From Octopus vulgaris (Eukaryota): DNA of 64,000 nt. The stretch covers positions 44,454,001 through 44,518,000 of the forward strand of contig OX597822.1 of NCBI GenBank assembly GCA_951406725.2. Reading direction: 5' to 3'. Below the pieces are notes generated by a model. The model saw only the letters and a list, made by a program, of their open reading frames with translations. It made no database searches and was not told the DNA's origin. The number at the start of each line of letters is the position of its first letter. Positions within the stretch are counted from its first letter, which is position 1. Below are positions 3,877 through 59,380 of the stretch, one piece after another. The translations under genes and the position numbers were made by a program.

Positions 3877-5887
3877 GGAGCAGCTAGATATTAGAAAAAA
3901 AGTCACAGAACCGAATCTCAAACTGCGTGAATAATTAAAACAAGAAAAATACACAAAAATATGCAACCGAAAAGCCGACAAATGAAATCATAATACAAAT
4001 AGCGAATTAGCAAATGATTCGATGGAAAACATAAAACAAACCACCATAAAAAATAACGGAACTACATCGGAAACAATGCAACAAAAACAACAGCCACAGA
4101 GGTGCCAAAAGAGAAAAAACCATAAGACAAAAGCAACCTAGGAAAATATATGGCAATGCAAACACTGAAAACGATAACCGCTCACACGAATGTTTATAAA
4201 ACGGACTTGAAAAGAAGGTAAAATGGTTCTGACGATCGCTGTTGTGTGAAACTTTAGTCGCGAGAAGAAATTCGATTTCAATATATTATATTTGTACGTG
4301 TGCGTGTATTTCTGTGTGTGAGTGTGTTGTTGTTGTGTGTATGTGTTGGTGAGTTGTCTGTGGGTGTGTATGTGTACAGTGAGAGAGGAGAGGGAAACTG
4401 AGAGAGAACCATAAATACATACACGCATACATAAAGTATGCTTGCATATTTACACACACACACATATATGTATGTATGTGTGTGCATGCATATATATATA
4501 TCCATGTATGCATACACACATATAACTGTATATTCATAGAACTTTGCATACATATGTATGAACATATACACATGGATATATATATATATATATATATATA
4601 TATATATATATGGATAGCCACATATATACACATGAACATATATACGCACACACATTCTTTCTCTCCCTTACACACGGAAACGTACATACATGTATACATA
4701 CATACACACACACACACACATATATATATATATATATACATACACACACATATACATATACATATATATATATATACATACATATATATATATATATATA
4801 TATATATATATATTTATATATACCGTATTACATATATGTATGTAAGAATTTTCATGTCTACATGTATATGTGGGTATAAGCTTATATTTTATGACTCTGT
4901 CTATCTCAGTACATGCTGGCACATTCACAGATAATTGGTCGAGATCTAAGGAAACAATGTTGCCCTCCAGTATAGAGAGTTCTTCTAAAGATATCTCCAA
5001 TACAATCTTTTGCCGTAAATTCATAATATATTTACTACCTATATATATTTCTTATTTATCGAGTTTCTCTGTCTAGAACGAGCTATGTCGTATGTGAACA
5101 CTGCTATCATGGGAAATGAATAGTTCAATGAAAGTATTGTAGCGTAGCCTACTTTTTGGTTTTCTTTTCTTATTATTTGTGATTTTTAACGTTACATATA
5201 GCAACGCATGTGCCCGCATCTTACGTGGGTGTCGAGATTGTAATTTTATTATTTATATTATTTGTGATATTGCTAATACAATTAATAATGTTTGTGGATG
5301 TATTTCTTCAGTTTCGTCACTTTTCTATGTTTCTTTTTTAAAATTGATGTATATAGATAGATAGATAGATAGATAGATAGATAGATAGATAGATAGATAG
5401 ATAGATAGATAGACAGATAGATAGATAGAGAGAGAGAGAGAAAGGGAGTGAGAATGAAAATGAGAGGGTGAAATATTCGCTAGCACAAACCAACTATATA
5501 GCAGTTTATATGCATCTGGATGCAGTTAACCCATGAAATAACACAATAGCTTTCTGTGCAAACTGATATACGAATGCACGGATATTGGGTTGGTCTTTGT
5601 CTATATGTGTATACGTGTGTGTACTTATATGTGTATATACATATACATACATACATACATACATATGTACATTTAGCCTTATATGTATATGCGTTTACAT
5701 TCACACTTATATATGAGCATATATATATCTACACACACACAAACACACACACACATGCACACGTATATATATATATATATATATATATATAACGGGAAGG
5801 TTTACGAAAATAAACAAAAGACGAAGGCAGGTGGAGTACAAGCAAACAATGTATTAGTATGGCGCTCAGGAATAGAAATAAAACAAG

Positions 5888-5925
5888 TCTTTTACGTTTC
5901 GAGCCTCCGCTCTTCGACAGAAAGA
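5888..5925 (-). ncRNA. Minimal type I HHR-like motif, family A (CUGUNGA-A core)
   Basis: Minus strand reads tcttt-CTGTCGA-A-gagc(ggag)gctc-GAAAC-GTA^aaaga. Stem III is the palindrome ACGT. It lies within a ~200-bp element (about 5791-5990) that ends at (TA)n. Confidence 0.65.
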
Positions 5926-6350
5926 TACACAGAAAAGAAACAAGGAGAGAAAAAATTGCGTGTAGGAGTTAACGATCCAATGCTTGCTTGGATTTACTTT
6001 CTCTTCTGAAAGAAATATGTTGTTGATAGTGACATCGAAGTTTTGGCCAGTTAAGCCTCCGTCGGACAACTTAACTGATCGAAACTTCGCAGTCACTGTC
6101 AACGACATTCTTTTTGGAGAAGAATATTTTTGTACTCTAAAAAAGTATAGATTAGCCCATCAGATGAATGTGAATTTTTTTCTTATAATTATATATATAT
6201 ATATATATATATATATATATATATATATATATATATATATATATATATATATATATATAAATGTATACGTATGCATTCATATCTGTGTATATATATGTAT
6301 GTGTGTGTGTGTTTATGTATGAGCGAGTGTGAGTTATTGAATGTTATCAA

Positions 6351-6757
6351 GGTGCAGGAGTGGCTGTGTGGTAAGTAGTTTGCCTACTAACCGCATGGTT
6401 CTATGTTCAGTCCCACTTCGTGGCACATTGGGCAGGTGTCTTCTACTATAGCCTCGGGTCGACAAAAGGATTGTGAGTGGATTTGATAGACGGAAACTGA
6501 AAGAAGCCCGTCGTATATATAAGTGTGTGTGTGTGTGATTGTGTGTCTGTGTTTGTCCCCCCCCCACCATCGCTTCAAAACCGATGCTGGTATGTTTACG
6601 TCCCCGTAACTTAGCGATTCCGCAAAAGAGACCGATAGAATAAGTATGAGACTTACAAAGAATAAGTCCTGGGTCGATTTGTCCGACTAAAAGGCGTTGC
6701 TCCAGCATGGCCGCAGTCAAATGACTGAAACAAGTAAAAGAATAAAAGAATAAAGAA
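6351..6757 (+). mobile_element. SINE family 1, full length
   Basis: tRNA-like head, internal (TA)/(TG) microsatellite, and tail gctccagcatggccgcagtcaaatgactgaaacaagtaaaagaataaaaga. Confidence 0.9.
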
Positions 6758-7843
6758 TATATATACACTCGTGTATATATATATATATATATATATATAT
6801 GAATATATAAATAAATACATGTCTGAGTGTGTGTGTATGTGCGTGTACATGCTTGTCTCCTTGTGTGTATGTGAGTGAGTGTGCATATGTATCGAGATAG
6901 CAAGGGAGAGATATGTAGTTGGGTATTTTGTTGTGACTTTGTGTGCTTTTAAATAAAGTAATGAAAACGTTGCTCTGACAGACTCTTTCATGTATTTTCC
7001 GCTCTTAAATGAAGATTTCTTCTTAATAAACTACGATGTGCGTATATTACATATAAGGATTATCATATTAATATAAGATAAAGAGAGAGAGAGAGAGGAA
7101 GAGTAAGAAGATACAGAGGAAGAAAAGTTAGGGAGGGAAGTGAAAGGAAAGAGATAGATGAAGTGGGTAAGAGAGAAAGAGAGAGAGAGAGAGAGAGAGA
7201 GAGAGAGAGAGAGAGAGAGAGAGAGAGAGAGAGAAAGGAAAGGCGTAGGGATAGATTGGTGTTGTGCACAATTGATTCAATTGTACCCAGTAAACGTTAT
7301 ATTTGTTATCGACCCTGCTTAGAAATAAAGCAAAGCAGACGCCACTTGAGTTCGTAGTTCGATTGCAAATGAATAAAACGAAACTCTGTTTGGCCTTCAG
7401 TCTGCTAACTCTATCAATTCTAGAGATAATAGACAATGATCATTTTGTTAAATTGATTTACTCCTTATCAAACTGTTCTCCTGCTTACCTGCATTACTTT
7501 TGCTTTGCTGATGTTATGTTATATTCAATCAACATCAAAGTTGTAAAATGTCTTACAGTCAGCCAAACCTGCACAAGCCTCAACTATCAACAGTCAATGC
7601 ATCTACAAGAAATGTATTATTAAACAGTCGTTATTAGTGACAGAAGCAGTATCAGTTTTGCGTAGTACCCTCTATATCGTTCTTAACTTAGATACAATGT
7701 AGAAAGCCTTAAAACCGTGAGTATTCTTCTCGAGAAAGCATCTCGTATATATATATATATATATATATATATATATATATATATATATGTGTGTGTGTGT
7801 GTGTGTGTGTGTGTGTGTGTGTGTAATAAATATATAACCGCTT

Positions 7844-57691: not shown

Positions 57692-58483
57692 TTATAATCA
57701 CCCCACATTACTGTATGGATAACACCATATAGTTTTTCTGGTGCATCTAAGTTAAGTACCACATTCAAGTAAATTCATTGGAAGTTACTTGAATCTTAAT
57801 TGCTTTGATTATATATATATATATGTATATATATATATATACATATACATAATGAGTGTATGTTCGAAAAAGAAGTCCTATCCTATGATCGTGATTTATG
57901 CGAATTACAGGACAAACTTTATTTATTCCATATACCAAAATATTCGAAGTATTACGCAAGCAGCAAACGACATCAAAACCAATATGACATGCGCAGAGAA
58001 AATCGGCTCGATGAAAATATATCGGCTGCTTTATTCAAATAATTCAATGAAAAGTTGACAGGCGAGAGAGTCTCATGGTGATTGCTAATATGTGGTGTGT
58101 AGATGTCTAATAAATATTGTTTTATTAATAATATGTAAGCTACCAAAGTATCTATCGAAAATTACGATAGAAAACCCATACTCCTCGGTATTATGAGAGC
58201 TGTCAAGATGTATTTTAGTATTTTAACAAACGAAGTTAGCCGCTGTATTCATATCGTCCATTATATGTATATTCAACAAGTAAATGATTGCTGCCAGAGT
58301 AAAATTTGTTATCTCTTCCTCGTGTGTTACACGACATTAGTTGTAAAACATTTTTTCTTCTTATCTACTAAGGCAATTTGCAATTATGTATCATGACATC
58401 CGAGGTACACACGTTAGACAGATAGTTTCGCAATAAAGTTATCTCGTTCAACTTGACAATGTCTTTTATGTATTACTTTGAGC

Positions 58484-58578
58484 TGCAGACGTGGCTATGT
58501 GGTAAGTAGCTTGCTTCCCAACCACCTGGTTCCGTGTTCAGTCCCACTGCATGGCACCTTTGGCAAGTATCTTCTATA
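58484..58578 (+). mobile_element. SINE family 1 head
   Basis: tRNA-like head only. Confidence 0.75.
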
Positions 58579-59224
58579 GATTACCAATCTAAGTGAGAAT
58601 GGGAGGATAAAGACATAAATGTTATTAATTGTGAAACTCAGAGTAATGCATCTAGTCTACATTGAACCACTTAAGCGAGAATCTCTGAGAAACGGCAAAG
58701 TGAATATTTCAACATCAACCATGTGCGTTTGCATGTATGTAAGGTATATATTCGTACAGGCAAAGAGGACGAAAATCTGGGTTTTCTTATTTTCTTTTCT
58801 TTTTCTCCTTCCATTTTTTGTATGAATATTCTTCACGTATTTTCGTTCTCGTTTTTTTCCTCATGTTTCCTCGTTGACCAGCGTCCGACCTTTGAAATGC
58901 ATCTATCACTATGCACTGAGCTTGAAAGATTGCTTGGAGATACACGGAATGTTATATAAATCAGCCAATTTGTTATATTTCTGAAGCATGTAACTATAAC
59001 TATTAGAGGCTGTTTTGTAAATAGTGTATCTGAAATTTAATGTGTATACGTGCACGTCTGTGTGTGTGTGTGCATATACATGTGCTTAAACATCTTTAAA
59101 ATTGCATTTTCAAACCTTCTTTCATATATATTTCCATTCATGCGGTACCTTACAACTTTACTTTGTTTTATATATATATATACCTTGACTTTTTTCCATT
59201 CGCCATGATAGATCGGTAGCCACA

Positions 59225-59380
59225 ACACACATTCTTTTTTTCTCCTTGTTTCTTTCTGTGGAAGACCGTAGACTCGAAACGTTAAAGACTTTTTCAATTC
59301 CCGAGCGTTATACTAATACATCCGTTTGTTTTCTACACCACCTGTCTTCGTCTTTTGTTGTTTTTTTGTGAATTCTCTTT
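59225..59380 (+). mobile_element. Family A short HHR-bearing element (HHR at 59251-59288)
   Basis: tcttt-CTGTGGA-A-gaccgtagactc-GAAAC-GTT^aaaga plus the family tail, ending at (TA)n. Confidence 0.7.

What the first reader, a model, noticed from the sequence alone, without database searches (positions are those of the whole stretch)
5791..59380. Family A: ~170-200 bp multicopy element with an atypical CUGUNGA-A hammerhead core
Seen: at least six copies (5791 -, 21973 -, 34370 +, 42965 +, 43620 +, 59225 +). Consensus is tcttt-CTGTNGA-A-GAGC(N4)GCTC-GAAAC-GTH^aaaga with a shared tail that usually ends in (TA)n. Position 7 and the stem II loop vary while the rest of the core is largely fixed, as expected for an HHR. 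However, A6 is U in the five better-preserved copies and an extra A follows A9. The unrelated motif at 29409 has the same core. Established: A6 is normally highly conserved, and an extra nucleotide after A9 occurs in a viroid HHR. Inference: this is a natural core variant that spread with the family.
Basis: partly seen in the sequence, partly recalled or inferred. Interest (0 to 1): 0.75.

Follow-up and report, generated by a model that had tools for sequence, protein, structure and literature searches.

The report
Penelope-type hammerhead with fixed U6 core
A very abundant short repeat, likely the end piece of a Penelope-like jumping gene, carries a hammerhead-ribozyme-shaped motif in which a normally invariant core adenine is a uracil across the family; it would be a new natural core variant, but whether it still cuts RNA is untested.

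Summary
The family is real: six copies, 68-84% alike. Five carry U at core position 6; the sixth has C. It matches the published consensus of Penelope-element minimal type I hammerheads (U-rich flank, short stem I, G10.1-C11.1, palindromic dimer-type stem III) at every position except A6. The 'extra A' is normal for these motifs, not atypical. Contigs from four public runs (four coded organisms, 5,094-10,861 contigs each) show U6 is family-wide: A6 is under 2% in 3 of 4 runs and unresolved in one. Common variants fall only on free sites (N7 with all four bases, one loop base, H17), suggesting continued selection after U6 arose (P about 0.005-0.01, rough). An unrelated motif at 29414 also has U6. 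Against: no compensatory changes, no parent RT/endonuclease gene found, position-6 mutants cleave poorly in print, and a Penelope hammerhead was dispensable for insertion in vitro. U6 is predicted to let the core mispair with stem III. Best reading: an attenuated, dimer- or protein-assisted ribozyme in a pLTR. I found no natural U6 in print, but could not read Lünse 2017. The scan noted other core variants elsewhere, not this sequence.

The parts
5791..5985 (-). Family A copy; core C3 at 5920, U6 at 5917; stem I 5 bp and stem II 4 bp intact; ends in (TA)n
21972..22150 (-). Family A copy; C3 at 22086; U6; A13 and one stem II pair decayed; ends in (TC)n(TA)n
34361..34535 (+). Family A copy; C3 at 34406; U6; stems intact; no (TA)n run at its end
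42945..43121 (+). Family A copy used for the read lay-down: C3 43003, U6 43006, N7 43007, extra A 43010, stem II 43011-43022, palindrome 43026-43029, predicted cut after 43030
43600..43732 (+). Decayed family A copy; C3 at 43673; C at position 6; about 60 nt deleted after GAAAC; ends in (TA)n
59183..59379 (+). Family A copy of about 197 bp between two (TA)n runs; C3 at 59256; U6; U17; stem II decayed
29409..29449 (+). Unrelated minimal hammerhead-like motif with the same U6 core, perfect 5-bp stem I, a different 4-nt palindrome and C17; partial second copy near 29515-29543 also has T at position 6

Best explanation
Family A is a dispersed 170-200 bp repeat with a minimal type I hammerhead motif and family-wide U6; it is likely the 3' end (pLTR) of a Penelope-like retroelement, and the motif likely remained under selection as a slowed, dimer- or protein-assisted self-cleaving RNA. 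Shown: the motif anatomy, the copy abundance, U6 fixation in 3 of 4 runs, and common variation confined to free positions. Inferred: reverse transcription starts about 105-120 nt downstream of stem II, the element inserts at (TA)n, and 5' truncation leaves these short copies. Two motifs on one tandem transcript would pair through the 4-nt palindrome to form helix III and cut after H17. Predicted: U6 loses the A6 contacts and lets U4-G5-U6 pair with A15.1-C15.2-G16.2 in the monomer, which hides the palindrome, so cutting would be weak until a partner or the element's protein refolds the RNA. The solitary copies in this window are probably inert, decaying inserts.
For: Fit to the published PLE min-HHR consensus at all positions but 6. 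Descriptor hits: 4 in the window against 0.05 per shuffle in 40 shuffles., 4 of 24 listed runs: no T>A place at 2% or more in X2 and X4; the single T>A place of X5 is 43004; clipped ends before 43008 read U at position 6 in X2 (68 records) and X5 (47). N7 shows all four bases at 4-45%, H17 is A or U (U 14-40%), and one loop base varies. 0 of 29 constrained hammerhead positions are polymorphic at 10% or more, against 3 of 7 free positions (P=0.005) and 9 of 48 tail positions (Fisher P=0.010). Fixed 3' end 114-129 nt after C3 in 4 of 5 full copies, similar to the RT start 111-118 nt into the anole PLE ORF that begins at stem II (PMC11167929). (TA)n is a known PLE target (PMC8557442). The anole PLE hammerhead cleaves only with its protein. 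A natural A6C hammerhead keeps low activity (PMC3088659) that Mn2+ rescues (PMC7151607). Competing helix probability is 0.98 (34406) and 0.42 (5920) with U6, and 0.00 with A at 6.
Against: No cleavage data. No compensatory pair changes among 5 copies, and none among the common variants. Saturation mutagenesis found low activity for CUGA changes other than the C3:G8 swap (PMC9901934). Anole PLE hammerhead mutants still inserted in vitro, and Naiad PLEs spread without canonical hammerheads. The polymorphism test uses depth-weighted contigs with seed and clipping bias, 10 table rows were hidden, one T>A place in X1 is unlocated, and subfamilies are not independent events. The double-hammerhead fold is not the predicted minimum (-15.9 vs -19.2 kcal/mol for 5920; -5.9 vs -28.8 for 34406). 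The competing helix was absent (P 0.03 or less) in the 43003, 59256 and 29414 stretches, which fold otherwise.
Confidence: 0.5

Rival explanations
1. The motif is catalytically dead but kept as a structured cis-element. U6 turns the hammerhead into a long irregular hairpin (stem I, new U4-U6 helix, G-A rich loop, stem II) that the PLE protein or the translation machinery recognises.
For: Predicted competing helix with U6 in 2 intact copies. N7, the loop and H17 would also be free in that fold. Cleavage is dispensable for anole PLE insertion in vitro. Low activity of CUGA mutants.
Against: C3, G8, G12 and the dimer palindrome stay fixed although a plain hairpin would not need them. The unrelated 29414 motif keeps a different palindrome with U6. 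The helix is not predicted in the 43003, 59256 or 29414 stretches.
Confidence: 0.25
2. Founder effect: one master with an inactivating A6U change amplified because cleavage is not needed. The apparent conservation reflects few masters and alignment bias, not selection.
For: U6 arises sporadically in canonical families: L018 and L066 each have an inverted sibling with A6. No covariation. Known bias.
Against: N7 reached all four bases while its neighbours stayed fixed (P about 0.005-0.01). H17, inside the seed-biased stretch, still shows a 14-40% variant, so common variants there are detectable. U6 is also in an unrelated motif.
Confidence: 0.2
3. The repeat is a SINE- or MITE-like element unrelated to PLEs, and the hammerhead likeness is chance.
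For: No Rfam hammerhead hit on two intact copies. No PLE ORF nearby.
Against: Rfam also missed canonical A6 motifs of the same kind in L018, L066 and at 22271. Match to every other feature of the PLE consensus. Shuffle controls are at or near zero. No tRNA gene called in the window.
Confidence: 0.05

Closest known systems
Minimal type I hammerheads (min-HHR) in pLTRs of metazoan Penelope-like elements (Cervera and De la Pena 2014, PMC4209133)
   Same: U-rich 5' flank, 4-5 bp stem I, extra nucleotide between 9 and 10.1, G10.1-C11.1, GAAA, palindromic 15.1-16.1 with no loop III, mostly dispersed single copies
   Different: U instead of A at position 6. All rows of their alignment that I saw (part 2 of 3 of supplement file 2) have A6; their descriptor required it. 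Stem II is 4 bp, at the short end. No parent ORF shown here.
Natural A6C hammerhead of phage Bcep176 (Perreault 2011, PMC3088659; Naghdi 2020, PMC7151607)
   Same: Natural change at position 6; low activity in Mg2+, rescued by Mn2+
   Different: C rather than U; a single phage motif, against a fixed state in a very abundant animal repeat family
Poseidon PLE of Anolis (PAc) hammerhead (Frangieh 2024, PMC11167929)
   Same: Hammerhead about 110-120 nt upstream of the element's 3' end; AT-rich targets
   Different: Canonical tested core with protein-assisted cleavage; ORF begins at stem II, whereas no ORF was identified here
Non-LTR retrozymes (Cervera and de la Pena 2020, PMC7229834; bioRxiv 10.64898/2026.07.22.740005)
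   Same: Short non-coding repeat with a type I hammerhead, linked to PLEs
   Different: Retrozymes are tandem repeats with canonical hammerheads; family A copies here are dispersed monomers with variable 5' ends

Membership tests
PLE minimal type I hammerhead | Core C3 U4 G5 N7 G8 A9 / G12 A13 A14 A15.1 / U16.1 H17 | tested here: met
PLE minimal type I hammerhead | A at position 6 | tested here: not met
   T in 5 of 6 copies; A under 2% in 3 of 4 runs
PLE minimal type I hammerhead | Extra nucleotide between 9 and 10.1; G10.1-C11.1 pair | tested here: met
   extra A in 6 of 6; G-C in 5 of 5 full copies; trait described
PLE minimal type I hammerhead | Palindromic stem III for dimer formation | tested here: met
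   5 of 5 full copies; different palindrome at 29414
PLE minimal type I hammerhead | Stems I and II supported by covariation | tested here: inconclusive
   80% of cells paired, 0 of 9 pairs with compensatory change in 5 decayed copies
PLE minimal type I hammerhead | Self-cleavage after H17 | not testable with these tools
   no assay; contigs cannot show RNA ends
Penelope-like element | pLTRs flanking an RT plus GIY-YIG ORF | tested here: inconclusive
   none in 149 of 258 window ORFs; no genome held
Penelope-like element | Fixed 3' end, variable 5' end, (TA)n or AT-rich target | tested here: met
Non-LTR retrozyme | Head-to-tail tandem repeats of hammerhead-bearing units | tested here: not met
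   six dispersed copies in the window; rest of the genome not examined

The most novel reading that the evidence does not exclude
A lineage of Penelope-like elements in this animal group runs on an active U6-core hammerhead. U6 works as a built-in safety catch: it locks the monomer in an off fold that a partner motif or the element's RT protein releases. U6 occurs in at least two unrelated pLTR families and is invisible to all CUGANGA-based searches, so a large class of natural ribozymes has been missed.
Probability: 0.25. Interest if true: 0.75.

Novelty: new variant of a known kind. Interest (0 to 1): 0.5.

Why it matters
A6 is treated as invariant, and hammerhead searches require it. A U6 core fixed across thousands of copies while free positions diversified gives a direct test of an open question: do PLE hammerheads need to cleave, or is the fold what is kept? 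If active, it widens the natural core and implies missed ribozymes. If dead, it is a clean case of a ribozyme kept as a structural signal.

Tried and rejected
No whole genome is held, so there is no genome-wide alignment. Rfam on the whole window returned microsatellite-driven miRNA matches in the 150 of 507 rows shown. Rfam found no hammerhead on two intact copies, but also none on canonical controls, so this is uninformative. MFE z-scores of the 7 folded stretches ran from -1.8 to +0.85: no signal. The family-specific pattern gave 0 hits in metagenome contigs. A general U6 pattern gave 115 loci from 10 of 64 parts of that collection; 9 of 115 have stem II of 4 bp or more and stem I of 3 bp or more, against 0 of 29 viral hits. 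Two of the nine (L018, L066) have an A6 sibling beside them, so these cannot show fixed U6 elsewhere. Searching the Craig 2021 supplement with short family motifs gave no match that looked like family A in the places shown (line breaks can hide matches, and only the first places were shown). Summed depth was not used as a copy number. In one search the 22075 slice was mis-indexed (true C3 is 22086) and is dropped. The scan's earlier findings hold no look-alike stretch and no notes on this genome.

Full report
Setting. The window is 35% GC and about a quarter short tandem repeats (16,537 of 64,000 bases masked). It has no PLE-like ORF: Pfam on 149 of 258 candidate ORFs gave only a weak DDE_3 hit and a weak C2H2 finger hit. 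From the microsatellite load and a dispersed SINE-like repeat I take it to be an octopus genome. That label is recalled and was not tested. No whole genome is held.

Observation. All six copies exist, with C3 at 5920(-), 22086(-), 34406, 43003, 43673 and 59256. They are 68-84% alike. The family pattern matches 5 times with up to 3 mismatches, against 0 in 100 shuffles. Position 6 is T in five copies and C in the deleted 43673 copy. A (TA)n or (TC)n run starts 114-129 nt after C3 in 4 of the 5 full copies, while the 5' ends differ. The 59183-59379 copy sits between two (TA)n runs. Only 34406 and 5920 pass a strict descriptor. A looser descriptor adds the unrelated U6 motif at 29414 and a canonical A6 hammerhead at 22271(-): 4 hits against 0.05 per shuffle.

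What it is. Cervera and De la Pena 2014 (PMC4209133; read parts 1-2 of 4 of the text and part 2 of 3 of supplement file 2; file 1 was not searchable) define the minimal hammerheads of PLE pLTRs. Their traits are a U-rich flank, short helix I, CUGANGA plus one extra nucleotide, G10.1-C11.1, GAAA, a palindrome in place of helix III, and UH. Family A matches all of these but A6. The extra A is therefore the norm, and only U6 is unusual. [quoted passage not shown] (TA)n is a preferred target of Naiad PLEs, and microsatellite bias is described for Neptune (PMC8557442; abstract, passages, supplement searches). The link to a PLE is by anatomy; no parent ORF was seen.

Is U6 family-wide? The 43003 copy found 22 of 24 listed runs holding part of it. 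I laid four runs from four coded organisms at 80% likeness: 8,221, 10,861, 6,697 and 5,094 contigs. No row for position 43006 is shown. The per-run tallies list no T>A place at 2% or more in X2 and X4, and one in X5, which is 43004 (7.5%). X1 has one T>A place that is not among the shown rows (10 rows hidden), so X1 is unresolved. In X5 all T changes are accounted for elsewhere, so A, C and G at position 6 are each under 2% there. Single changes next door are detected (G5 to A, 3-4%), and clipped ends before 43008 read T at position 6 in X2 and X5. U6 is thus the family state, shared by subfamilies that differ at N7.

Selection after U6. Between the two strands of stem I (36 positions) only three sites vary at 10% or more: N7 (all four bases, 4-45%), the first loop II base, and H17 (A or U). 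All three are among the 7 positions that a hammerhead leaves free (hypergeometric P=0.005). None of 29 constrained positions varies, against 9 of 48 in the tail (Fisher P=0.010) (numbers). Caveats: depth-weighted contigs favour abundant subfamilies, seeding suppresses rare variants in 43016-43037, rows are hidden, and the sites are few. There is no covariation: 0 of 9 pairs in five copies, and none among the common variants. Individual copies break pairs without compensation, as neutral decay would.

How it likely works. Position 6 matters in print. The natural A6C of phage Bcep176 cleaves at under 0.1 per min (PMC3088659; passages and supplement legends) and prefers Mn2+ (PMC7151607; parts 1-2 of 4). 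Saturation mutagenesis found low activity for CUGA changes except the C3:G8 swap (PMC9901934; passages). PLE motifs are already slow and dimeric. The anole motif cleaves only with its protein and is not needed for insertion in vitro. Folding adds a second brake: with U6, U4-G5-U6 pairs with 15.1-16.2 in the monomer (P=0.98 in 34406, 0.42 in 5920; 0.00 with A at 6). This was not seen in the 43003, 59256 or 29414 stretches. The double hammerhead is foldable but is not the predicted minimum. I therefore favour a slowed, assisted ribozyme in the master elements (0.5), over a dead but structurally kept hairpin (0.25), pure founder effect (0.2) or chance likeness (0.05).

Elsewhere. The family pattern is absent from the metagenome collection. 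A general U6 pattern gave 115 loci from a partial scan, 9 with both stems, against 0 of 29 viral hits. L018 and L066 have A6 siblings in an inverted copy, so sporadic U6 occurs in canonical families and these hits do not show fixation. The 29414 motif shares no BLAST similarity with family A, yet it has U6, a perfect 5-bp stem I and another palindrome. It is one decayed locus with a partial duplicate, so it only hints at a second U6 family.

Novelty. Searches for hammerhead with A6U, CUGUNGA-type terms, position-6 variant terms, and octopus with Penelope and hammerhead or ribozyme showed no natural U6 hammerhead in the listings. Most subscription papers are not held. Lünse et al. (about PLE-associated dimeric hammerheads) could not be read and may contain such variants; I saw only its citation in PMC6765202 (passages). 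Also seen: PMC7229834 (passages), bioRxiv 10.64898/2026.07.22.740005 (part 1 of 5; its supplements are closed), PMC12192606 (one passage), PMC13725137 (abstract and passages). Earlier notes of this scan describe other PLE core variants in other genomes but not this sequence. Verdict: a real and well-supported new core variant of a known kind of motif, with activity untested. Interest 0.5.

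Noticed in passing
window 22222-22276 (-), C3 at 22271: Canonical A6 type I hammerhead-like motif with a 5-bp stem III and GUC site; single in the window, stems partly decayed
   Followed up: partly
window 43125-43492 (-) and 48060-48300 (-), with an inverted piece at 43505-43548: Second repeat family ending in (TA)n with a decayed CUGANGA-like core. At 43125-43732 it forms an inverted cluster with two family A copies, like a complex PLE insertion
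   Followed up: partly
window 5990-6125, 13828-13999, 14529-14652, 33078-33230, 45552-45981, 51630-51893, 57277-57690: Long, mutually unrelated inverted repeats; 33078-33230 is a perfect 75-bp-arm hairpin and 45557-45977 has 210-bp perfect arms. One lies directly upstream of the 5920 copy
   Followed up: no
window 29440-29515: Short tandem 21-nt units between the two U6 cores of the 29414 motif
   Followed up: no
window 35595-35825 (+) and 37420-37650 (-): Weak Pfam DDE_3 match (E 1.4e-4) and weak C2H2 finger match, both below the curated cut-offs
   Followed up: no
L078:401-431 (+) and L078:65-307 (-): U6 motif with 6-bp stem II and 5-bp stem I beside an opposite-strand ORF fragment that looks by eye like a PLE endonuclease end; no Pfam hit
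   Followed up: partly
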